A stretch of 64,000 bases of DNA from Candidatus Pacearchaeota archaeon (GTDB lineage Archaea > Nanobdellota > Nanobdellia > Pacearchaeales > GW2011-AR1): positions 6,732 to 70,731 of the forward strand of contig JAFCDB010000001.1 of NCBI GenBank assembly GCA_017609885.1, written 5' to 3'. Shown here piece after piece: positions 47,127-55,549 of this stretch (its first letter is position 1; the number at the start of each line of letters is the position of its first letter). The translations under genes were made by a program, and so were the position numbers. The notes beneath the pieces were generated by a model that searched no databases, was not told the origin of the DNA, and was given only the letters and a program-made list of their open reading frames with translations.

Positions 47127-47201
47127 GGCTCCGTAGCTCAGTCTGGTTAGAGCACTGGCCTTTTAAGCCAGGTGTCGGGGGTTCAAATCCCTCCGGGGCC
47201 A
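47127..47201 (+). tRNA. tRNA-Lys (anticodon TTT)
   Basis: Hand-folded: acceptor GGCTCCG/CGGGGCC, D-arm GCTC-AGTCTGGTTA-GAGC, anticodon stem CTGGC/GCCAG with loop CTTTTAA, T-arm GGGGG-TTCAAAT-CCCTC. Confidence 0.8.
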
Positions 47202-47320
47202 TTTTTTTGCAATATGTATGTTCTTGAATTTCAACTCGCATGTATTATGGGGGGGTCGAGTGATTTCGCGAGAGGTGTTAGAGATTAGTGAGGTGAGAAA
47301 GGTAAGTCAGGTCATGAGCA

Positions 47321-47335
47321 AAATCCCTCCGGGGC
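47321..47335 (+). repeat. 15-nt exact duplicate of the tRNA-Lys 3' end (AAATCCCTCCGGGGC); att-like scar
   Basis: Identical to 47185-47199, same orientation, 120 bp downstream of the tRNA. Confidence 0.6.
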
Positions 47336-47541
47336 TATGATAACTTTCATTTCGGTGTATGTAATAAAAAAATTAAACAAAGGTTTTTGAAATGATAATT
47401 TATTAAAAATAAAATGGGGGGGAAAGAATTTTTAAAACCAGATAGGCATAAAATTATATTAGCATTATTGTTTCCAATTTCCTTTTTCACTTTTGAGTTT
47501 CTTGATGATTTTTTTATAAATATTTATTTGACATTCATGGA

Positions 47542-47760
47542 TTGGTGGGCGGTGTTTTCATGTTATTATATGCTCCTGTCATAATATTTTATGTATTATT
47601 TGTTTACCTAAACATCTTTTCTATGGGCCCTCTTTTTTTTGGAAATAGTAGAAGTAAGGGATTTCTGGGAAATATGACTACATCAATAATAACCTACATA
47701 ATTATGATATTATACACTTATATTTTATCTTGTTTTATTGTTGGATTATTAGAAAAATAA
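47542..47760 (+). CDS. Small hydrophobic ORF (doubtful)
   Basis: 72-aa ORF, two hydrophobic stretches; very AT-rich region. Confidence 0.2.
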   Translation: MVGGVFMLLYAPVIIFYVLFVYLNIFSMGPLFFGNSRSKGFLGNMTTSIITYIIMILYTYILSCFIVGLLEK

Positions 47761-47882
47761 AAAATAGAAAAATGAATAATATTCAACAATCAGACGTTTA
47801 AAATTAGCCTCTATAGTATAACTCAAACCACCACAATTTCCCAACCTCAAAATATATTTCCCAGAATATATTAATTTTTAAA

Positions 47883-48932
47883 GTGATGAGTTTTGGAAAT
47901 GAGATGGAAGTTAAACAAAAAGAGTTGAGAGGTAATGGGAAACTTCGTTCTATTAATATTGAAGCTGAAAATCTTGCCGAAGCAACTCATAAAACTATCA
48001 TCGCTTGTTATGATGCGGGTGCAAGAGTTGAAACCCCTAAACAAAGACCAGACATGACTTTGGGATATGATTCTCCAATTGAAATTACAATTTTAAATCC
48101 AAATAGTGAGCCAAAAATTTACAATCCTGCAAATTTAGATTTTCCCAAAGGAAACTTAGAATACTGTTACGCTGTAACTCACGGAATTCACAATCACAGA
48201 AAAAAATGTGAAGAACATCCAGAATGGTGGGGTTATACTTACAATGAAAGATTTGTTGACCAGATGCCTTTTGTTTTTCAGAGAATAAAAGCAGATTGGG
48301 ATGAAAAAGGAAGAATGACTGGAAGAGATTATTTTTTTACAATCTGGCGTGCAGGCGATGATATTGTCTTGGAACAACCAGATCCGCCTTGCTGGCAATC
48401 AGGACAAATCAGATTTTTACATAATGAGGAAGGAAATATTGTTATGAATTATCTCACTCATTGGAGAAGTAGAGATTTATTTAAAGCATGGAATCAAAAC
48501 ATTTTAGCTCAAATTGAATTAATGAAATTAATAAGAGACAAAACTTCAAACTTAATTGGAGAACAAATTGAACTTGGAAGTTACATTGACCATTCAAGTT
48601 CATTACATCTTTATGGATTATATGTTGACAGAGATGGATTAGATAATACAATAAAATTAATGAAAAAAATTCCATATGAACAAATGTCTTGGAGTTTTGA
48701 AGATTCTCTTGAACAAATGAGTGAGATGGGAAGCAAAGATGCTACATTAAGATTAATTGCAGCTCAACTTGATGCAGAACATAAAGGACATGGACTTCAA
48801 CAATCAAGAGAAACCTTAAAGAATTTAGAATATGATGTAGAAAATTTCGATTATCCTAAAGAATGGGATACATGGCCAGAATCATGGGATGCTGAACCTG
48901 ATGTTAGTAAATTGGCGAGAGTTGTAAAATGA
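47883..48932 (+). CDS. thyA: Thymidylate synthase ThyA-like (divergent; could be a pyrimidine hydroxymethylase of the same fold)
   Basis: Catalytic Cys context PDPPCWQSGQIRF (cf. PPCH.F.QF) followed by HWRSRD (cf. YQRSxD) and later SSSLHLYG (cf. NIASY/HIY). Confidence 0.6.
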   Translation: MMSFGNEMEVKQKELRGNGKLRSINIEAENLAEATHKTIIACYDAGARVETPKQRPDMTLGYDSPIEITILNPNSEPKIYNPANLDFPKGNLEYCYAVTHGIHNHRKKCEEHPEWWGYTYNERFVDQMPFVFQRIKADWDEKGRMTGRDYFFTIWRAGDDIVLEQPDPPCWQSGQIRFLHNEEGNIVMNYLTHWRSRDLFKAWNQNILAQIELMKLIRDKTSNLIGEQIELGSYIDHSSSLHLYGLYVDRDGLDNTIKLMKKIPYEQMSWSFEDSLEQMSEMGSKDATLRLIAAQLDAEHKGHGLQQSRETLKNLEYDVENFDYPKEWDTWPESWDAEPDVSKLARVVK

Positions 48933-49402
48933 CACTAAGAATCCCTTTAATCTATGAACCATCAATAACAAAAATTGAAACTGAACAAGATATTGTTGAG
49001 TTATTAAAAGATGTTAGAAAGGATATTAGAACTTCAAATTCTAAACTTGTGCTGCGCAGATTAAGAGAGGTTCTTATTCATGTTGAGGAGGGCAAGTATA
49101 TTCACAATGGAGAATCAAGGATAGAAACTGAAATTGATTTATCAAAAGCAACTTTCTTAGTTAATGAATATAAACAGAAATCTGCGCGGAATTGCATAGT
49201 GTGCAATAATAGAGAAATTAAATCAACAGAAGATATAGGAGATTATAATGTTTGGTGTTCTTTAACTGAAATAGAATCTGATGTTGACAGTAGACAAGGG
49301 CATTCGCCGAGAATAAAAGAATATTATGAAAAGGGTTGCGATGATTATCATTCTAATTTTAGGTCTTTAGAACAAGTTTTAGCAGAAGCAGAATTAACCT
49401 GA
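48929..49402 (+). CDS. Hypothetical protein, 4-nt overlap with thyA-like
   Basis: 157-aa ORF. Confidence 0.35.
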   Translation: MTLRIPLIYEPSITKIETEQDIVELLKDVRKDIRTSNSKLVLRRLREVLIHVEEGKYIHNGESRIETEIDLSKATFLVNEYKQKSARNCIVCNNREIKSTEDIGDYNVWCSLTEIESDVDSRQGHSPRIKEYYEKGCDDYHSNFRSLEQVLAEAELT

Positions 49403-49861
49403 ACTCCCAAATCCCCCTTCTCCCCTTTCACTCTCTACCAATTCCTTAACTTCTTCAATCTCTACATTTTCAATCTTATTAATAACTGCCTGTGCAATTT
49501 TGTCTCCTTGCTTTATTTCAAAATTTTCATCTCCGTGATTAATTAAAATTACCCCTACTTCTCCCCGATAACCCGAGTCAATTGTTCCAGGAGAATTTAC
49601 AAGTGAAATTCCTTTTTTTATTGCAAGTCCGCTTCTTGGACGAATTTGCATTTCATATCCAGGAGGAATTTCAAAAATTAAACCGCTTTTTACAAGGCAT
49701 CTTTCACCAGGTTTTAGGAAATGTTCACTTGTTGAAAATAAATCCATTCCTGCATCGCCAGGATTTGCATAAATTGGGGTTTGCGCTTTTTCATGTATTT
49801 TTTTTATTTTTAGTTTCATTATCCGCATCCGCCTCCTTGAATTTCTCCGCAATCTGTACAT
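49394..49861 (-). CDS. dut: dUTP diphosphatase (trimeric dUTPase)
   Basis: ANPGDAGMDLFS (motif I), RSGLAIKKGISLVNSPGTIDSGYRGEV (motifs II-III). Confidence 0.75.
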   Translation of the reverse strand: MYRLRRNSRRRMRIMKLKIKKIHEKAQTPIYANPGDAGMDLFSTSEHFLKPGERCLVKSGLIFEIPPGYEMQIRPRSGLAIKKGISLVNSPGTIDSGYRGEVGVILINHGDENFEIKQGDKIAQAVINKIENVEIEEVKELVESERGEGGFGSSG

Positions 49862-52584
49862 TTAGGATGATTGCATCCTGCCTCGAAAGTATATTCTTCA
49901 TTTCCGCATGCCTCACACACAAACGCCTTATCTAATTTTCCATGATTTCCACTAACCAACAACTCTTCATCAGAACTTGTAACCCTAACTTGCGACAATA
50001 AAGACATATACTCGTCAGTTCCTTCCTCAACCTTGCGTAGCTCAGACTTATGCACAAGATTAATCAGCCTCCCATTATCATCATTTCCAACAATTCCATT
50101 TTTTAATAAACAATCTTCTAATACAACCCCTGCTGCATGTTCAATTGATTTAATCTTTCTTGGTCCCAACCCTTCTTCTTCATTTGAAGAAGCAGACTGC
50201 AATCTCCCAATAAGTTCAGCATAATTTGGATTAGGTTGCCTCAATATCTCAGTCCTATCCATTCCTGATTGAGCAAAGCTCACACTTGTTGCATGTCCTA
50301 AAGGAGCCCGAGTCTGAAAAATTTCATCGGGAATAAAATACGCTTTCCCTCCCTCATCATCAACATAAATATTACTTGTAATAGTTATATGTAAACTATC
50401 TCCATTATTTGGCCTTTTAACTTTGTACTTCAATGCCTGAGCTTTAAGATTAACAATCTCATGCGGAGAAACATTATTCTGCACAAGAAGAGTTCTTTTT
50501 TCTAACCCACTTAAAACCCCCTTCTTGGAATTATCTCTAAAAATCGTAATTCCCACACAACCTTCATCATAAGCCATTTTGTAAGTATTTAATACATCTT
50601 CAACTGTTGCATCTTCTGGCAAGTTAACTGTTTTAGAAACTGCATTATCTACTCCAACTCCATTACCAACCTGAAAAGCTGCCTGCATTCGAACATGCCA
50701 TTCTGGAGCAATATCATGAGAAGTAGCATAAATTCTTTGAATTTCCTCAGGGATCACATCCATTTCTCTGACACTGCCAATTTTCTCAATTGTTTTAATA
50801 ATTCCTTCTAATTTAACCTTATCAAATTGCTCATATAAATCTCCCTCAAGTAAAGGATTCCTGTAAATTAATTCCTTGCCATCCATGCAAGTTTTTTTAA
50901 ATGCAAGTCTAAAAAAAGGTTCTACTCCACCAGAAACATTGCATATCATTCCTGTTGTCCCATTTGGAGCAATTGTGGTAACAGTTGCGTTTCTAACTCT
51001 CAGCCCCTCCTTCTCCCATACACTCCCTTCCCAATATGGAAAGACTCCCCTCTCCTCAGCAATTTCCACAGACTTTTTTCTTGCTGTTTCAGTAACATAA
51101 TCACTTACACCTTTCGCAAGTTCAACAGCTTCCTCACTATCATATGCCATGCCTAATTGCGCAAGCATTTCAGCCCATCCCATCATTCCAAGTCCAATCT
51201 TTCTCGTACCATGAACTTTCCCATAAATTTTTTGAAAGGGAAACTTGCTCATATCAATCACATTATCTAAAAAATGAACAGCAGTTCCAATTCTATTCTC
51301 AAGTTCAGAATAATCTACTGAAGAATCATTTACACAGTTCGCTAAATTTATCCCACCCAAATTACATGCTTCAAATGGAAGAAGAGGTTGCTCTCCACAA
51401 GGATTTGTTGATTCAATTCTTCCAACATGTGGAACAGTATTTCTTTGTTCTAATCTATCTAAAAAAACAATTCCAGGACAACCTGTTTTCCACGCACATT
51501 CAGATATATAATCAAATAGAGAATGTGCGTTAATCAAAAGAGTTTCATCATCAGCAACTTTCCCAATTTCTTCTCCACTATAAATATTAATTACTTTCCC
51601 CTCATCAACAATCAATGACGGATTTAACTCTCCAAATAATTCATCATATTTTCTAGTTCCTTTTTCCAAAACATTCTCCTTTTTCCATACTCTTTCCTCT
51701 AAAGGGACATCAGATTCTCTTTTTGGATTTACTAACCTAAAATAACCTTCATCTTTTACTAATTGCATAAACTTATCATCAATTCCCACTGACAAATTAA
51801 AATTAACCAAAGTTCCATTTGTTTTTTCATTAATAAATTCTAGAATATCTGGGTGAGTATAATTTAATATCGCCATGTTTGCCCCTCTTCTAAATCCTCC
51901 TTGATTAACTGCATCAGTTGAAGAATCAAAAACCTTGATAAATGGAACTGGACCGCTTGATGAACCAAATGTAGTTGAAATCATATCTGAGCGAGGCCTT
52001 AAATGTGAAAAATTGAATCCTGTACCTCCACCGCTTTTGTGAATCATTGCCATATATCTTAAAACATCATAAATTCCATTTCCTTGTTTTTCAGCATCTT
52101 CGCCAATATCATCTGTAGCCATATAATCTTCAACAGGTAAAACAAAACAAGCAGAAAGTTGTTGCAAGGCCCGTCCAGCATTGCATAAAGTTGGAGTATT
52201 TGGCATGAATCTTTGGTACAACATTGACTCTAAGAATTCATCAGCAACAGATTTAATATCCTTATCTGAATTATATTTCAAATCAGCTTCTGCAATATTA
52301 ACTGCAACTCTTGCAAATAAATCTAAAGCGTTTTCAATAACTTCTTTATTCTCATTTTTTTCAAGATACCTTGTCTCAAGAGTTAATCTTGCGTTTGGGA
52401 CAAAATAAATATCTTCCTCTCTCTCATTATCATGAATTTTATATCCTGTTCCTTCTTCTCTAACATAGTCTGTTATTGCATATCTCTCTTTAACTAGTGA
52501 TTCAAGAGCTCTTCTCTCACTTTCTGTTTGTCCGACAAATGGTCTGCTCTTCTCAAGATCTCTAACTAAATCCTCTTCCATCAC
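49819..52584 (-). CDS. nrdJ: Ribonucleotide reductase class II (adenosylcobalamin-dependent, NrdJ) with C-terminal zinc ribbon
   Basis: 921 aa; active-site region STNPCGEQPL, TAPNGTTG; C-terminal CEACGNEEYTFEAGCNHPKCTDCGEIQGGGCG. Confidence 0.85.
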   Translation of the reverse strand: MMEEDLVRDLEKSRPFVGQTESERRALESLVKERYAITDYVREEGTGYKIHDNEREEDIYFVPNARLTLETRYLEKNENKEVIENALDLFARVAVNIAEADLKYNSDKDIKSVADEFLESMLYQRFMPNTPTLCNAGRALQQLSACFVLPVEDYMATDDIGEDAEKQGNGIYDVLRYMAMIHKSGGGTGFNFSHLRPRSDMISTTFGSSSGPVPFIKVFDSSTDAVNQGGFRRGANMAILNYTHPDILEFINEKTNGTLVNFNLSVGIDDKFMQLVKDEGYFRLVNPKRESDVPLEERVWKKENVLEKGTRKYDELFGELNPSLIVDEGKVINIYSGEEIGKVADDETLLINAHSLFDYISECAWKTGCPGIVFLDRLEQRNTVPHVGRIESTNPCGEQPLLPFEACNLGGINLANCVNDSSVDYSELENRIGTAVHFLDNVIDMSKFPFQKIYGKVHGTRKIGLGMMGWAEMLAQLGMAYDSEEAVELAKGVSDYVTETARKKSVEIAEERGVFPYWEGSVWEKEGLRVRNATVTTIAPNGTTGMICNVSGGVEPFFRLAFKKTCMDGKELIYRNPLLEGDLYEQFDKVKLEGIIKTIEKIGSVREMDVIPEEIQRIYATSHDIAPEWHVRMQAAFQVGNGVGVDNAVSKTVNLPEDATVEDVLNTYKMAYDEGCVGITIFRDNSKKGVLSGLEKRTLLVQNNVSPHEIVNLKAQALKYKVKRPNNGDSLHITITSNIYVDDEGGKAYFIPDEIFQTRAPLGHATSVSFAQSGMDRTEILRQPNPNYAELIGRLQSASSNEEEGLGPRKIKSIEHAAGVVLEDCLLKNGIVGNDDNGRLINLVHKSELRKVEEGTDEYMSLLSQVRVTSSDEELLVSGNHGKLDKAFVCEACGNEEYTFEAGCNHPKCTDCGEIQGGGCG

Positions 52585-53030
52585 AACCCCCTCAACTCTT
52601 TTTTAAAATCTTTAACATCCCCAAAATCCAGATATACCGACGCAAATCTAATATACGCAACTTTGTCCAGTTTTTTTAATTTTTTCATTATATCTTCTCC
52701 TATTTTTTTTGTTGGGATTTCTTTATTTTTCAGCAGAATTTTTTCTTCAATTTCATTGACAATTTTTTCTGCTTGTTCATGGGAGATATTTCGTTTTTCA
52801 CATGCTTTGATTATTCCAAGGAAAATTTTATCTCTATCAAATCTTTCTCGCCTGCTGTCCTTTTTCACAACATACCTTTCAATTGGCTCTGTTTTTTCAT
52901 AGGTTGTAAATCTTTTCCCACATTTCAAGCATTCACGCCTCCTCCGAGTTAATTCATGCGAATCCCGTTTATTTGTAACTTTTGTTTCAGAGTGTTTGCA
53001 AAATGGACATATCATTTTAATTATATACAA
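52581..53030 (-). CDS. nrdR: NrdR transcriptional repressor (zinc ribbon plus ATP-cone)
   Basis: MICPFCKHSETKVTNKRDSHELTRRRRECLKCGKRFTTYEKTE then ATP-cone; overlaps the nrdJ start by 4 nt. Confidence 0.8.
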   Translation of the reverse strand: MYIIKMICPFCKHSETKVTNKRDSHELTRRRRECLKCGKRFTTYEKTEPIERYVVKKDSRRERFDRDKIFLGIIKACEKRNISHEQAEKIVNEIEEKILLKNKEIPTKKIGEDIMKKLKKLDKVAYIRFASVYLDFGDVKDFKKELRGL

Positions 53031-53124
53031 TATGTTGTATCTAACTCTTTTTTATTCACCACTTATTGTATGTTGCATTATGATTAAGATTAATGTCTAT
53101 ATAAATATTTCTGTGCTTAAGTTG

Positions 53125-53733
53125 TTATTTTTCGCTGAAAAATTTGTTTAACGAAAAATTTGTCAAAAAAATCATTGAAAAGTAAATTCCAAACCAAATT
53201 AGCGGATACAACATCTGCACCTGATAATCGCCGCAGAATTCAAAGACACAGTTGAGATTTCTCTCTATTGGCGTGAAAAAATAAATTAGGAAGTAAAAAA
53301 TTGTGGCTTGGAGAAAGCTGATTTGCCATGAATTTTTTGTTTTTAATTTTATTAAATGAAGTGCTACTAATGACAAAGGAATTGTGTAGAGGTGCTGGGT
53401 TGTTACGAGCTTTGAAATGATAGGACCTTGTTCGAAAAAATAATTTGAAATTCCCCAAAGAATTCCGCCTGTTAGAAAAACATAAATAAAATCAATTGTC
53501 CAAATTAGCATTGGAATTGCAAGAATGTTTAATTGACTTACAATGAGCCAATCTTTTCTTAACAAAATTCCTAGTCCGATTAGCAAAAGGCCGAGATAGC
53601 AAAACCAGATAATGCTAAAAATATCATATTCGTAAAGGGCGTTGATTACAGCAATTGTTCCGAGGATTAGGAAAAAGATTCCAAGTAGGTTTAGGAAAAT
53701 ATTTTTTTTATTCATTGATTGTTTTTTCTTCAT
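53125..53733 (-). CDS. Polytopic membrane protein
   Basis: 202 aa, about 6 TM. Confidence 0.4.
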   Translation of the reverse strand: MKKKQSMNKKNIFLNLLGIFFLILGTIAVINALYEYDIFSIIWFCYLGLLLIGLGILLRKDWLIVSQLNILAIPMLIWTIDFIYVFLTGGILWGISNYFFEQGPIISKLVTTQHLYTIPLSLVALHLIKLKTKNSWQISFLQATIFYFLIYFFTPIERNLNCVFEFCGDYQVQMLYPLIWFGIYFSMIFLTNFSLNKFFSEK

Positions 53734-53778
53734 GTGTATAGTAAGAGTTTTTAAATTTAAAAATCATTGGGTTTTTAT

Positions 53779-53869
53779 GTCCCTGTAGTTCAGTCAGGAT
53801 AGAACATGACCTTGCGGTGAGTTTGCTCGCGAATAGGTCAAGACCGCGGTTCAAATCCGTGCAGGGGCG
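53779..53869 (+). tRNA. tRNA-Arg (anticodon GCG) with a ~17-nt intron in the anticodon loop
   Basis: Hand-folded: acceptor GTCCCTG/CAGGGGC, D-arm GTTC...GAAC, anticodon stem TGACC...GGTCA separated by TTGCGG plus TGAGTTTGCTCGCGAAT(A); T-arm CGCGG-TTCAAAT-CCGTG. Confidence 0.55.
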
Positions 53870-53887
53870 TTTTTGCGGGAGCAAACA

Positions 53888-53996
53888 GGCTTTGGTGAAA
53901 TCATAGGATATATAACATTTTTCTCAATTTAAAATCTACATTGCGAGACAAATCACGTCGAGCAATGCTGGGCGGGCGGGTAGGGAATTGAGAAAA
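53888..53996. repeat. 109-bp perfect direct repeat, copy 1 (contains internal inverted repeat TTTTCTCAATT...AATTGAGAAAA)
   Basis: Identical to 57189-57297. Confidence 0.9.
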
Positions 53997-54058
53997 TTGA
54001 AATTTATTAATTATTATAACTTAGGTGCAGATAAGTTTTGTTTGTTCTTAAGTTATTT

Positions 54059-54274
54059 CCCCTCATAGCTCAGTGGTTAGAGCGCTTGGCTGTAGAAATA
54101 AAGGGGACCTAAGGTTCACCTTTATCAAACCCTCCTAAAAGAGGACAACCTTCGGTTGTCTTATAAGGAGAGTTGCGATTAGGGCGGACGTTCCATTGGA
54201 TTAGAATGAAACCTGATTAGCCGAAAGTTCGTGCAGAACCCGAGAGATCCCCGGTTCGAATCCGGGTGGGGGGA
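54059..54274 (+). tRNA. tRNA-Tyr-like (anticodon GTA) with an unusually long (~144 nt) intron
   Basis: 5' exon CCCCTCA-TA-GCTCAGTGGTTAGAGC-G-CTTGG-CTGTAG...; 3' exon C-CCGAG-AGATC-CCCGG-TTCGAAT-CCGGG-TGGGGGG-A pairs with it (acceptor, anticodon and T stems all consistent). Confidence 0.5.
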
Positions 54275-54282
54275 TTTATCTT

Positions 54283-54319: not shown

Positions 54320-54517
54320 ATGGAAATTCAAACAAAGGACATAATGGATGAACTTAGGCAGATAAGAATTGATATTGAAATAATCAAGGATAATATGCCT
54401 GATAAAGAAATGTTCTTGACAGCAGATGAAGAAGTCTTATTTGAAAGAAGTTTTGAAAATGAGAAAAATGATGAGCTTATTTCTTCTGAAGAATTAAAAA
54501 AAGAGTTGGAGATATGA
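54320..54517 (+). CDS. Putative antitoxin of the RelE-like module
   Basis: 65-aa acidic ORF overlapping the toxin start by 4 nt. Confidence 0.4.
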   Translation: MEIQTKDIMDELRQIRIDIEIIKDNMPDKEMFLTADEEVLFERSFENEKNDELISSEELKKELEI

Positions 54518-54771
54518 AATTTTCCATTGATTATGATAAACAACCAATTAAGTTTCTTAAAAATCAAAATAAATTTATAACAAAAAGGATTATTGAAAAA
54601 ATAGATTCATTATTAGTAAATCCAGTTCTCAGCAATGCAAAACCGATTGTTGAGAAACACAATTGTTTTAGAATAAGAATAGGAAATTATCGCGCTTTGT
54701 ATAGGATTAATTATAAAACTAAAATCATTATAGTATTCAAATTAGATAAGAGGGAGAAAGTTTATAATTAA
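54514..54771 (+). CDS. relE: RelE/ParE-family type II toxin
   Basis: KHNCFRIRIGNYRALYRINYKTKIIIVFKLDKREKVY matches the RelE C-terminal signature. Confidence 0.65.
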   Translation: MKFSIDYDKQPIKFLKNQNKFITKRIIEKIDSLLVNPVLSNAKPIVEKHNCFRIRIGNYRALYRINYKTKIIIVFKLDKREKVYN

Positions 54772-54845
54772 TAAATGATTTACTAATAATAAATCCCTAT
54801 AAGAAACAAACTAATAATTCTGTTATGGGCAGAGGATTGAATGTT

Positions 54846-54861
54846 CCAAAAAACTTAAAAA
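54846..54861 (+). promoter_or_regulatory. BRE/TATA motif CCAAAAAACTTAAAAA, 26 nt upstream of the ATG at 54883 (leaderless)
   Basis: Motif recurrence and spacing. Confidence 0.4.
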
Positions 54862-54882
54862 CACCCAACCACTGAATTAATC

Positions 54883-55227
54883 ATGGCGAAAGAATGCGAA
54901 TTTATGTACGATGATTTTTCAGACAGACTTTTTATTTCTTGTAAAAAAGATTCTGATATGATTGCTGGAAGCGTAAGGTTGCTGAATTTAGTTGTGGACT
55001 TTACAACAGATAATAAGGTTGTTAATGTTGAAATTATTGGGGCTTCTGATTATTTAGAATCAATCGGGTTTGATTCTTCTATTTTAAATAAGTTAATTTC
55101 TGTTGATTTGGTTTTTCAGCAAAAAAGAAATGGATATATGATTTATTTTATTCTTCATAGTGAATCTCAAACTCAGAGAATTCCTTATAATTTAATAACT
55201 GAAAATCCTTCGATGATTAACGCTTAA
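54883..55227 (+). CDS. Hypothetical protein
   Basis: 114-aa ORF. Confidence 0.35.
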   Translation: MAKECEFMYDDFSDRLFISCKKDSDMIAGSVRLLNLVVDFTTDNKVVNVEIIGASDYLESIGFDSSILNKLISVDLVFQQKRNGYMIYFILHSESQTQRIPYNLITENPSMINA

Positions 55228-55549
55228 ATCTTTTTTCTAAACTTCTTTTATATTCTATTGCATGTATGATTAAAACTTTGTTGTTTTTTGGACAGGTCGC
55301 TATTGAAAAATAAATGTTGTTACTTAATTTGTAAAATAATTCGTATCCTAAATCTCCATATTTTAATCTTTCTTTTTCTATTTCATATACTTTTTCAAAT
55401 TGCGGGAAAATTTCCAAAACTTTCTGATGTTCTATTCCTTTTTTAAGAATTCCAAATTTATAATATTCTGTAAATATCAATCTTTTCCCTTTAATTTTTT
55501 CAGTTATTATTTTATCAATTTCTTTTTTGTCTGTGATTAATTCAACCAT
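55217..55549 (-). CDS. Hypothetical protein
   Basis: 110-aa ORF, convergent with 54883..55227. Confidence 0.35.
   Translation of the reverse strand: MVELITDKKEIDKIITEKIKGKRLIFTEYYKFGILKKGIEHQKVLEIFPQFEKVYEIEKERLKYGDLGYELFYKLSNNIYFSIATCPKNNKVLIIHAIEYKRSLEKRFKR

What the first reader, a model, noticed from the sequence alone, without database searches (positions are those of the whole stretch)
47127..53869. tRNA-Lys with a 15-nt 3'-end duplicate, bordering a bacterial-style nrdR-nrdJ-dut-thyA block that ends at tRNA-Arg
An exact 15-nt copy of the tRNA-Lys 3' end (AAATCCCTCCGGGGC) lies 120 bp downstream in the same orientation. This is the typical scar of integrase-mediated insertion/excision at a tRNA gene. 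The ~6.4 kb between tRNA-Lys and tRNA-Arg encodes NrdR, class II RNR, dUTPase and a ThyA-like enzyme. NrdR is a characteristically bacterial repressor, here translationally coupled to nrdJ. Together this is a compact dNTP-supply module bounded by two tRNA genes, and it is plausibly horizontally acquired. Virus-derived dNTP modules are common in archaeal mobilomes.
Basis: partly seen in the sequence, partly recalled or inferred. Interest (0 to 1): 0.55.

Follow-up and report, generated by a model that had tools for sequence, protein, structure and literature searches.

The report
Native archaeal dNTP cluster, small tRNA-Lys scar
The repeat after tRNA-Lys is real, but it encloses only a 121-bp insert; the neighbouring dNTP-supply genes are a native, conserved gene cluster of this tiny archaeon (Pacearchaeota) under an NrdR repressor, not an imported island.

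Summary
tRNA-Lys(UUU) lies at 47127-47202. Its 3' end is copied exactly (15 nt; 17 of 18 if extended) at 47321-47335, far beyond chance. The genes are as described: nrdR-nrdJ-dut on the minus strand and a divergent ThyA-fold gene plus a 157-aa partner on the plus strand, ending at an intron-bearing tRNA-Arg(GCG).

The island reading is not supported.
- ThyA-like, NrdR and Dut are 56-78% identical to Pacearchaeota/Nanoarchaeota homologues.
- The layout is syntenic in other DPANN genomes, including across tRNA-Lys and up to tRNA-Arg.
- No further repeat copy, and no integrase among the ORFs checked, bounds the 6.4 kb.
- Synonymous codon usage is native.

nrdR is preceded by tandem NrdR boxes (ATACAAYATRTTGTAT, 31 bp apart) behind a TATA-like element. 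The same arrangement occurs in 13 related loci, so this is a working NrdR regulon.

The repeat delimits only a 121-bp non-coding insert. In my sample, 19 of 114 DPANN tRNA-Lys genes carry similar short 3'-end duplications. Some enclose toxin-antitoxin cassettes, and one has a tyrosine integrase 49 nt after the tRNA. The repeat is therefore most likely a small site-specific recombination scar. Overall: ordinary, with a modest lineage-level curiosity.

The parts
47127..47202 (+). tRNA-Lys(UUU), intact cloverleaf, followed by a T7 run
   Evidence: ARAGORN; Rfam 72.3 bits
47185..47199 (+). Direct repeat copy 1, inside the tRNA (positions ~57-71: end of T-loop, T-stem 3' strand, acceptor 3' strand)
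47203..47320 (+). Non-coding filling of the mini-insert between the repeat copies. No stable RNA fold, no Rfam family, and no demonstrable homology to inserts in other genomes
   Evidence: fold z=+1.68; Rfam E-value scan found only the tRNA; leave-one-out nhmmer gave no hit
47321..47335 (+). Direct repeat copy 2 (15/15; 17/18 through 47338). Proposed attR-like junction
47886..48932 (+). Divergent ThyA-fold enzyme (348 aa) of a Pacearchaeota-wide family. It keeps DPPC (catalytic Cys169), R194-S-R-D197, N205 and H241/Y243. Probable thymidylate synthase, function unproven
48929..49402 (+). 157-aa protein of unknown function. Its start overlaps the thyA-like stop (ATGA). It is conserved next to ThyA-like in L002, L020 and L023
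49394..49819 (-). dut (trimeric dUTPase, 141 aa from the ATG that overlaps the nrdJ stop)
49819..52584 (-). nrdJ, class II (B12) ribonucleotide reductase, ~920 aa, with a Cys-rich C-terminal tail
52581..53015 (-). nrdR (Zn-ribbon + ATP-cone repressor, 144 aa from ATG 53015)
53025..53040 (-). NrdR box 2, ATACAACATATTGTAT. It matches the lineage consensus 16/16 and the bacterial consensus 13/16, and is the only full-score site in 64 kb
53056..53071 (-). NrdR box 1, ATACAATAAGTGGTGA (weaker half), starting 31 bp upstream of box 2
53098..53105 (-). TATA-like element TTTATATA within GAAATATTTATATAG. The same motif is seen upstream of box 1 in related loci (inferred promoter)
   Evidence: sequence; inference
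53125..53733 (-). 202-aa membrane protein of unknown function. It is syntenic in L004/L017 (44% identity), so part of the conserved neighbourhood
53779..53870 (+). tRNA-Arg(GCG) with a 17-nt intron. tRNA-Arg(GCG) sits at the same position in L004/L017 (116-nt intron)

Best explanation
The region holds two separate things.

(1) A native, vertically inherited dNTP-supply gene cluster of a Pacearchaeota (DPANN) archaeon. It consists of a translationally coupled nrdR-nrdJ-dut operon, convergent with a thyA-like/157-aa operon. NrdR most likely represses its own operon. It would bind two 16-bp palindromic boxes that start 31 bp apart, just downstream of an archaeal TATA-type promoter, when dATP is high. 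That step is inferred from the bacterial mechanism. tRNA-Lys and tRNA-Arg are long-standing neighbours of this cluster, not island borders. Across the lineage, the RNR gene behind nrdR varies (class II NrdJ or class III NrdDG), and so does the thymidylate synthase type (ThyA, ThyA-like, ThyX).

(2) A 121-bp non-coding insert immediately 3' of tRNA-Lys, bracketed by a 15-18-nt duplicate of the tRNA 3' end. It is most likely the footprint of tyrosine-integrase-type site-specific recombination at the tRNA-Lys 3' end: either a cargo-less or decayed mini-element, or a cassette remnant. It has nothing to do with the origin of the dNTP genes.
For: Cluster is native:
- ThyA-like has about 180 homologues at 50-64% identity, and the named ones are Pacearchaeota.
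- The best 120 NrdR hits are 62-78% identical and all but one of the named ones are Pacearchaeota/Nanoarchaeota (the exception is labelled Paceibacterota bacterium).
- tblastn synteny: NrdR, Dut, ThyA-like and an RNR co-localise in most of ~20 Pacearchaeota loci. The left-flank genes SfLAP and the 114-aa gene are conserved across tRNA-Lys in L004 and L009. mem202 and tRNA-Arg(GCG) are conserved at the right end in L004.
- L127 (nrdJ-dut-thyA-trx-tRNA-Lys-rpoH; no nrdR detected) and L128 (nrdR-nrdJ-dut-thyA-DHFR-trx-tRNA-Lys-rpoH) have window-type NrdJ at 62-67% identity. L195 has NrdJ-ThyA-tRNA-Lys.
- nrdJ codon usage is native: chi/n 0.097, GC3 0.218.

Regulon:
- Tandem boxes spaced 31-32 bp lie upstream of nrdR in the window and 13 other loci. 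A score of 13 or more occurred in only 24 of 2000 random 200-nt windows. There is a single full-score site in the 64-kb window.
- Stop/start overlaps link the genes.

Scar:
- The repeat is non-random and has a sharp boundary.
- 3'-end repeats of 12 nt or more within 400 nt occur in 19/114 distinct DPANN tRNA-Lys loci, against 1/26 other tRNAs.
- L195 has two toxin-antitoxin cassettes, each ending in the tRNA 3' core, inserted between tRNA-Lys and rpoH. L222 has the same insert ends but DJ-1/PfpI cargo. L134 has HicB-like antitoxin with a putative HicA (no Pfam hit) plus an HhH-GPD protein.
- L201 has a 364-aa Phage_integrase protein (41.9 bits, above cutoff) starting 49 nt after tRNA-Lys.
- L143 and L144 differ in copy number of a 69-nt unit.
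Against: - No integrase was found in the window, and no empty-site or occupied-site polymorphism could be found for this species. The only twin contig, L001, is identical.
- The window's insert has no significant similarity to inserts elsewhere, so its link to the cassette-bearing cases is by position and architecture only.
- No attP-bearing virus or plasmid was found.
- The tRNA-Lys versus other-tRNA contrast rests on a sample selected through tRNA-Lys, with only 26 control tRNAs.
- The window's NrdJ is only 27-41% identical to the NrdJ of other ThyA-like-bearing Pacearchaeota. An old intra-DPANN replacement of the RNR gene is therefore not excluded.
- NrdR binding and repression on an archaeal promoter are untested.
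Confidence: 0.75

Rival explanations
1. One reading: the whole 6.4-kb nrdR-nrdJ-dut-thyA block is a horizontally acquired, possibly virus-derived, island. It integrated at tRNA-Lys and ends at tRNA-Arg.
For: - A tRNA 3'-end repeat is present.
- NrdR is rare in archaea (PMC9110341).
- The tri- and tetranucleotide profile over 48-52.5 kb is the strongest outlier in the window, z~3.
- Generic PHROG hits exist for RNR, dUTPase and TS.
Against: - The repeat encloses 121 bp, not the block. There is no further copy up to tRNA-Arg.
- No integrase was found.
- Synteny is conserved, including across both tRNAs.
- The closest homologues are DPANN.
- Synonymous codon usage is native. The outlier comes from high GC at codon positions 1 and 2 in nrdJ.
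Confidence: 0.04
2. The block is native, but the RNR gene itself (nrdJ, perhaps with nrdR and dut) replaced an ancestral class III nrdDG in situ. The donor would be another DPANN lineage from the same habitat.
For: - Syntenic Pacearchaeota L002 and L004 carry NrdD and NrdG behind NrdR.
- The window's NrdJ is 27-41% identical to the NrdJ of L011, L016, L021 and L024, but 57-70% identical to ~35 proteins of ~920 aa. These include L127 and L128, from the same or a sister sample.
Against: - Dut of L127 is 70% identical to the window's, as close as Pacearchaeota L004 (73%). L127-type genomes may simply be close relatives, with NrdJ inherited vertically.
- Codon usage is native.
- No tree was built.
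Confidence: 0.3
3. The insert plus the 3'-end copy is a functional element rather than a scar. Examples: a small RNA ending in a tRNA-Lys-like 3' end, a displaced tRNA 3' part with a T-arm insertion, or a processing or termination signal.
For: - Such duplications recur in about 17% of DPANN tRNA-Lys loci, and copy 2 always matches its own tRNA's lineage-specific 3' end.
- An inverse T-loop motif, GGATTTGAAC, recurs after tRNA-Lys.
- In L165 and L221 the inserts share long blocks and a closing helix with some compensatory pairs.
- 5'-end partial copies also occur upstream in 20/116 loci, and one hairpin shows a compensatory change.
Against: - The window's insert folds worse than shuffled sequence (z=+1.68 and +0.78), has no Rfam match, and has no detectable homology to the other inserts.
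- Insert sizes and sequences are very heterogeneous.
- Some inserts carry ordinary mobile cargo.
Confidence: 0.12
4. The repeat is a chance match, or a product of replication slippage or tandem duplication with no recombinase involved.
For: - The repeat is short (15 nt) and only 136 bp from its source.
- L143 shows tandem 69-nt units.
Against: - 0.03 matches are expected and 0 of 100 shuffles reached 2.
- The sequence between the copies is not a duplicate of the tRNA or of its trailer, so this is an insertion flanked by repeats, not a tandem duplication.
Confidence: 0.06

Closest known systems
Bacterial NrdR regulon (Zn-ribbon/ATP-cone repressor binding two 16-bp NrdR boxes with a 15-16-bp linker; PMC9110341, PMC13584703)
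   Same: - Same domain architecture, above the NCBIfam equivalog cutoff.
- Two palindromic 16-bp boxes starting 31-32 bp apart, directly upstream of an RNR operon that begins with nrdR itself.
- Box sequence 13/16 to ACACWATATATWGTGT.
   Different: - The host is a DPANN archaeon. The boxes sit behind a TATA-type archaeal promoter rather than a sigma-70 promoter.
- The lineage consensus is ATACAAYATRTTGTAT.
- The operon also carries dut.
Haloarchaeal nrdR-nrdAB operons acquired from bacteria (PMC3019208)
   Same: Archaeal genomes with nrdR placed first in an RNR operon.
   Different: Those are class I RNRs with clear bacterial neighbours, some on plasmids. Here the RNR is class II (class III in relatives), and NrdR is widespread and syntenic within one archaeal lineage.
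Partial tRNA gene copies left by integrated elements in archaea (e.g. PYG1 in Pyrococcus yayanosii, 44-bp repeats around 21 kb; PMC9897764)
   Same: A same-orientation duplicate of the tRNA 3' end downstream of an intact tRNA gene. An integrase lies next to the same tRNA species in a related genome (L201).
   Different: The enclosed DNA is 121 bp with no genes, instead of 9-23 kb with an integrase. The repeat is only 15-18 nt.
Integrons and CALINs, including archaeal integrons (PMC9668308)
   Same: In related loci (L195, L222), small promoter-less cassettes, often toxin-antitoxin, are arrayed head-to-tail at one site. Each ends in a conserved ~30-nt element plus a short core repeat.
   Different: No IntI and no attC-type hairpin with RYYYAAC/GTTRRRY cores was found. 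The attachment core is the tRNA-Lys 3' end. The window itself has a single cargo-less unit.
Thymidylate synthase ThyA superfamily (TS, dCMP/CMP hydroxymethylases, phage dCMP hydroxylase AfhB)
   Same: - Predicted fold matches TS-family structures: Foldseek probability 1.0, E 6e-9 to 3e-7.
- Catalytic Cys, the RSxD motif and the Asn equivalent to E. coli N177 are invariant in the family.
- The gene sits where canonical thyA sits in L127 and L128.
   Different: - Only 12-18% identity to solved structures.
- Below Pfam and TIGR cutoffs, and no PDB hit with a sequence profile.
- It has a ~90-aa C-terminal extension and a conserved 157-aa partner.
- It co-occurs with ThyX in L004.

Membership tests
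NrdR repressor / NrdR regulon | N-terminal Zn-ribbon followed by an ATP-cone | tested here: met
   PF22811 (2.7e-15) and PF03477 (1.9e-19); TIGR00244 165.4 bits against a cutoff of 124.65
NrdR repressor / NrdR regulon | Two 16-bp palindromic NrdR boxes, 15-16-bp linker, upstream of an RNR operon | tested here: met
   Boxes at 53025-53040 and 53056-53071, starts 31 bp apart. The same arrangement occurs in 13 related loci. It is rare in random windows
NrdR repressor / NrdR regulon | ATP/dATP-dependent DNA binding and repression | not testable with these tools
   Needs EMSA or reporter assays
Class II ribonucleotide reductase (NrdJ) | RNR barrel and all-alpha domains, NrdJ equivalog score | tested here: met
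   PF02867 2.2e-118 and PF00317; TIGR02504 621 bits against a cutoff of 400. The Cys-rich C-terminal tail is read directly from the translation
Trimeric dUTPase | dUTPase domain above the equivalog cutoff | tested here: met
   NF001862 188 bits against 103; TIGR00576 178 bits against 102.55
Thymidylate synthase ThyA (PF00303) | Sequence match above the family threshold | tested here: not met
   Pfam 18.8 bits against a cutoff of 24.3; TIGR03283 34 bits against 174.55; no PDB hit with the profile
Thymidylate synthase ThyA (PF00303) | TS fold with catalytic Cys, RSxD and substrate Asn | tested here: met
   AF2 pLDDT 87.7; Foldseek probability 1.0 to TS-family structures; invariant C169, R194-S195-R196-D197, N205, H241, Y243. 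Residue equivalence to E. coli C146/R166/D169/N177 was judged by motif spacing, not by structural superposition
Thymidylate synthase ThyA (PF00303) | dUMP to dTMP activity | not testable with these tools
   The top structural hits also include dCMP hydroxylase and CMP hydroxymethylase, so chemistry is open
tRNA-integrated genomic island (for the 6.4-kb block) | Direct repeats of the tRNA end at both island borders | tested here: not met
   The second copy is 118 nt after the tRNA. There is no other copy (up to 4 mismatches) from 47336 to 54100 except the tRNA-Arg T-arm
tRNA-integrated genomic island (for the 6.4-kb block) | Integrase or other mobility genes inside | tested here: not met
   All ORFs of the block were scanned. 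No homologue of the L201 or L247 integrases is in the window
tRNA-integrated genomic island (for the 6.4-kb block) | Absent or non-syntenic in related genomes; foreign composition | tested here: not met
   Synteny is conserved. Codon usage is native. The k-mer outlier is explained by GC12
att-type recombination scar (for the 121-bp insert) | Same-orientation duplicate covering the tRNA 3' end, with a sharp boundary | tested here: met
att-type recombination scar (for the 121-bp insert) | Cognate integrase, or occupied/empty alleles | tested here: inconclusive
   None in the window or for this species. Related genomes show an integrase at tRNA-Lys (L201) and variable cargo or copy number (L195/L222, L143/L144)
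Integron / attC cassette array | IntI next to attI; attC hairpins with conserved cores | not tested
   No IntI was seen. attC models were not run. Resemblance is architectural only

The most novel reading that the evidence does not exclude
In Pacearchaeota and related DPANN archaea, the 3' end of tRNA-Lys(UUU) may act as a chromosomal cassette-acquisition site. Short units bounded by a copy of the tRNA 3' end are inserted head-to-tail by a tyrosine recombinase acting in trans. The units range from cargo-less inserts of 40-170 bp to toxin-antitoxin or single-gene cassettes of 0.6-1.7 kb. This would be an integron-like platform that uses a tRNA end as its attachment core. The window's 121-bp insert would be a minimal member. 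The mirror-image 5'-end partial copies seen upstream of tRNA-Lys in other genomes could belong to the same process.
Probability: 0.25. Interest if true: 0.6.

Novelty: new member of a known kind. Interest (0 to 1): 0.3.

Why it matters
For the finding as posed, the outcome is corrective. A tRNA-flanked block that looks bacterial (NrdR, class II RNR, dUTPase, ThyA-like) in a DPANN genome should not be read as a recent island. It is a lineage-conserved dNTP-supply neighbourhood.

Three points have modest value beyond that.
- A bacterial-type nucleotide-sensing repressor, with canonical tandem boxes, is embedded behind archaeal TATA-type promoters across a whole archaeal lineage. This gives a clean system for asking how NrdR represses an archaeal RNA polymerase.
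- The RNR class and the thymidylate synthase type are swapped in situ within one conserved locus.
- tRNA-Lys in these ultrasmall archaea is a recurrent site of tiny repeat-bounded insertions and small toxin-antitoxin cassettes. This hints at how genomes with few mobile elements still acquire accessory genes.

Tried and rejected
- Exact-protein lookup with the GTG start of ThyA-like failed. The true start is the next ATG.
- Search for an attP donor. A viral-contig scan with the 15-mer gave 41 hits, all unrelated (GC 0.30-0.70; ordinary tRNAs or a phage terminator-like AAAATCCCTCCGGGGCTATTTTT). Scans with the tRNA-Lys core and with an L165/L221-type insert end gave nothing.
- Structured-RNA reading of the window's insert. 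Folding is no better than shuffles and there is no Rfam match.
- I first thought the window's insert was homologous to inserts in L189, L165, L221 and L175 (MAFFT; RNAalifold). I rejected this for the window. A leave-one-out profile of the four others does not find 47203-47320 at E up to 100. An nhmmer profile that included the window only recovered its own members.
- Empty-site search. No locus closer than ~72% DNA identity to the window's flanks is available.
- Casposon-type target duplication (14-15 bp) was considered and dropped. Repeat lengths across loci vary from 12 to 45 nt, and no terminal inverted repeats are visible by eye at the insert ends (sequence; repeat lengths); no tool was run to look for them.
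- Composition as an HGT signal. The k-mer outlier was traced to amino-acid composition.
- A PDB sequence search with the ThyA-like profile and with p157 gave nothing useful.
- p157 structure prediction was not attempted, because its homologues could not be submitted as an alignment.
Full report
**The observation**

ARAGORN and Rfam place tRNA-Lys(UUU) at 47127-47202. The 15-mer AAATCCCTCCGGGGC occurs exactly twice in the 64-kb window. One copy is at 47185-47199, covering the end of the T-loop, the T-stem 3' strand and the acceptor 3' strand. The other is at 47321-47335, in the same orientation. At up to 2 mismatches, 0.03 matches are expected, and none of 100 shuffles reached two.

A local alignment extends the repeat to 17 of 18 positions, through the discriminator base. 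Similarity upstream of it is not significant (p=0.14), so the left edge is sharp.

- NrdR: Zn-ribbon plus ATP-cone, TIGR00244 above cutoff.
- NrdJ: TIGR02504, 621 bits.
- Trimeric dUTPase.
- A weak ThyA-like protein.
- tRNA-Arg(GCG) with a 17-nt intron at 53779-53870.

Stop/start overlaps link nrdR-nrdJ (TGATG), nrdJ-dut (TAATG) and thyA-like/p157 (ATGA).

**Is the 6.4-kb block an island?**

No. The evidence is as follows.
- The ThyA-like protein has about 180 homologues at 50-64% identity, and the named ones are Candidatus Pacearchaeota.
- The best 120 NrdR relatives are 62-78% identical, and all but one of the named ones are Pacearchaeota or Nanoarchaeota (the exception is labelled Paceibacterota bacterium).
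- In a 480-kb Pacearchaeota contig (L004/L017) the order is SfLAP, 113-aa gene, tRNA-Lys, ThyA-like..., Dut..., NrdG, NrdD, NrdR, 200-aa membrane protein, tRNA-Arg(GCG). This matches the window's left-flank genes across tRNA-Lys, its right-flank membrane gene and the same tRNA-Arg.
- Across about 20 Pacearchaeota loci from GTDB genomes, NrdR (57-76% identity), Dut, ThyA-like and an RNR co-localise in most. tRNA-Lys lies within 10 kb in nine.
- Other DPANN contigs show the same neighbourhood. L127 (no nrdR detected) and L128 have (nrdR-)nrdJ-dut-thyA-(DHFR)-trx-tRNA-Lys-rpoH-rpoB, and L195 has NrdJ-ThyA-tRNA-Lys. The adjacency of tRNA-Lys to dNTP genes is therefore old.
- No third copy of the repeat (up to 4 mismatches) exists up to tRNA-Arg.
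- No integrase was found in the block or among ten other mid-size ORFs of the window. Those ORFs are housekeeping genes: aminoacyl-tRNA synthetases, enolase, exosome subunit, Kae1, Tyw1.

**Composition**

Tri- and tetranucleotide profiles peak over 48-52.5 kb with z~3. However, nrdJ's synonymous codon usage is typical (chi/n 0.097; GC3 0.218). Its GC at codon positions 1 and 2 is among the highest in the window (0.427). The signal therefore reflects protein composition, not foreign DNA.

**What varies within the cluster**

Behind nrdR, relatives carry either class III NrdDG (L002, L004) or NrdJ. The window's NrdJ is only 27-41% identical to the NrdJ of other ThyA-like-bearing loci. It is 57-70% identical to a set of ~920-aa NrdJ proteins, including those of L127 and L128. 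An old in-situ replacement of the RNR gene within DPANN is possible, at about 0.3. It is not required, because L127's Dut is as close to the window's (70%) as that of bona fide Pacearchaeota.

The thymidylate synthase slot also varies:
- Canonical ThyA in L127, L128 and L195.
- The divergent ThyA-like plus a 157-aa partner in Pacearchaeota.
- An additional ThyX in L004.

**Regulation**

The 109-bp gap upstream of nrdR contains ATACAACATATTGTAT (53025-53040). A weaker ATACAATAAGTGGTGA starts 31 bp upstream of it (53056-53071). Both are preceded by GAAATATTTATATAG.

The same tandem arrangement, with 31-32 bp spacing and consensus ATACAAYATRTTGTAT, occurs upstream of nrdR in 13 other DPANN loci. 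Often the same TATA-like motif precedes it. Scores of 13/16 or better to the bacterial consensus occur in only 24 of 2000 random 200-nt windows, and the window has a single full-score site.

This matches the published definition of NrdR sites: two 16-bp boxes with a 15-16-bp linker (abstract of PMC13584703). The literature already states that NrdR occurs in 'some archaea' and controls 'a few archaeal RNRs'. Earlier archaeal examples are haloarchaeal class I operons of bacterial origin. So this is a new lineage-level member of a known regulon. Repression itself is inferred, not shown.

**The ThyA-like protein**

It fails the Pfam and TIGR thresholds, and a family profile finds no PDB sequence. 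An AlphaFold model (pLDDT 87.7, pTM 0.88) matches thymidylate-synthase-fold structures with Foldseek probability 1.0 at 12-18% identity. The matches include a phage dCMP hydroxylase, bacterial and human TS, and MilA.

The family keeps an invariant DPPC cysteine, an RSRD motif, an Asn eight residues after the Asp, and an H..Y pair. These fit the ThyA catalytic set by motif spacing. Thymidylate synthase is the likeliest function, but the chemistry is unproven.

**What the repeat is**

It brackets 121 bp of non-coding DNA. That DNA does not fold better than shuffles and has no Rfam match.

I scanned metagenomes for the conserved tRNA-Lys core and obtained 120 loci. Adding the genome loci gave the following.
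- 19 of 114 distinct tRNA-Lys genes carry a duplicate of 12 nt or more of their own 3' end within 400 nt downstream. The figure for other tRNAs is 1 of 26.
- Most inserts are 40-170 bp. The second copy always carries the lineage-specific acceptor and T-stem bases of its own tRNA.

Larger cases are informative:
- L195 has two toxin-antitoxin cassettes (VapB/ParE-type) inserted between tRNA-Lys and rpoH. Each ends in a conserved ~30-nt element plus the core CATCGGGGCCAT.
- L222 has the same insert ends but a DJ-1/PfpI gene.
- L134 carries a HicB-like antitoxin with a putative HicA (no Pfam hit) plus an HhH-GPD protein.
- L201 has a 364-aa tyrosine recombinase (Pfam 41.9 bits) starting 49 nt after tRNA-Lys.
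- L247 and L171 have weaker integrase homologues nearby.
- L143 and L144 differ in copy number of a 69-nt unit.

Taken together, tRNA-Lys is a recombination hot spot in these archaea. The window's repeat is best read as a small att-type scar.

**Caveats on the scar reading**

- My initial impression that the window's insert is homologous to others did not survive a leave-one-out profile test.
- No empty allele, donor element or integrase is available for this species.
- The control set of other tRNAs is small and not independently sampled.
- A functional-RNA reading keeps about 0.12. It rests on a recurrent inverse T-loop motif (GGATTTGAAC) after tRNA-Lys, on partial compensatory pairing in the L165/L221 inserts, and on mirror-image 5' partial copies upstream of tRNA-Lys in 20 of 116 loci.

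**Verdict**

The locus is a native, NrdR-controlled dNTP-supply cluster with ordinary components. The only mildly novel aspect lies outside this window's own evidence: the lineage-wide pattern of tiny repeat-bounded inserts and cassettes at tRNA-Lys.

Noticed in passing
window 54059-54275 (+): tRNA-Tyr(GUA) with a 143-nt intron at the canonical 37/38 position. Default ARAGORN and Rfam miss it, and ARAGORN -i miscalls it as Ile(GAT). In-silico splicing gives a clean 73-nt tRNA-Tyr. No Rfam family matches the intron.
   Followed up: yes
window 54320-55549: Directly after tRNA-Tyr there is a ParE/RelE-type toxin (54514-54771) with an upstream 65-aa partner. It is followed by a DUF2283 protein (54883-55227) and a convergent 110-aa ORF, in the most AT-rich stretch of the window (GC 0.224 at 55-56 kb). 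This resembles the toxin-antitoxin cassettes seen after tRNA-Lys in L195, but no repeat of the tRNA-Tyr 3' end (10 nt or more) lies within 8 kb.
   Followed up: partly
L148, L139, L179, L171 and 16 other loci (upstream of tRNA-Lys): Partial copies of the tRNA-Lys 5' end (13-28 nt, exact) lie 60-95 nt upstream of the gene in 20/116 loci. Some are tandem (L148 x2, L139 x2). In L139 the two spacers differ by a compensatory change in a hairpin (GCGAT..ATCGC vs GAGAT..ATCTC). Unexplained.
   Followed up: partly
L004 9819-9843, L165, L225, L202, L215, L009 etc.; degenerate in window ~47225-47236: The motif GGATTTGAAC, the reverse complement of the T-loop GTTCAAATCC, recurs 3-40 nt after the tRNA-Lys 3' end. 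It often forms a near-perfect palindrome with an adjacent GTTCAAATC, and it also occurs after the second repeat copy and in loci without any repeat. It could be a recombinase or other protein-binding site. Not tested.
   Followed up: no
window 47886-49402; L002, L020, L023; L004: The ThyA-like gene is followed by a conserved 157-aa protein of unknown function with a CxxC motif (25-32% identity between lineages), overlapping by ATGA. In L004 the ThyA-like gene co-occurs with ThyX and dCMP deaminase, so its role as the sole thymidylate synthase is uncertain.
   Followed up: partly
L024 1945-5343; proteins P0156, P0217: NrdJ of L024 is interrupted by ~1.1 kb at residue ~396. Two NrdJ homologues carry intein/LAGLIDADG Pfam domains (PF14528, PF14890). 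These are probably inteins in DPANN class II RNRs.
   Followed up: no
window 47336-47885: A ~550-bp AT-rich stretch lies between the second repeat copy and thyA-like. It has only small ORFs (56 aa; 72 aa, hydrophobic), no gene call in the twin JGI contig, and no similarity in any related locus. In L004 the equivalent gap is ~75 bp. It is possibly older inserted DNA.
   Followed up: partly
L087, L100, L101, L103, L107, L124 (IMG/VR contigs, GC 0.49-0.56): Several related viral contigs carry AAAATCCCTCCGGGGCTAT(T)TTT, in four of them 10 nt from the end of the fetched stretch. They share 19 nt with the window's second repeat copy including its flanking bases (A before, TAT after), which differ from the tRNA. 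It looks like a terminator hairpin in unrelated phages and is probably coincidence.
   Followed up: partly
L013 tRNA-Asp(GUC) 553-626: A 26-nt duplicate of the tRNA-Asp 3' end (TTCGACTCCCGGTCGGGGCGTTTTTT) lies 155 nt downstream, so the short-insert phenomenon is not strictly limited to tRNA-Lys.
   Followed up: no
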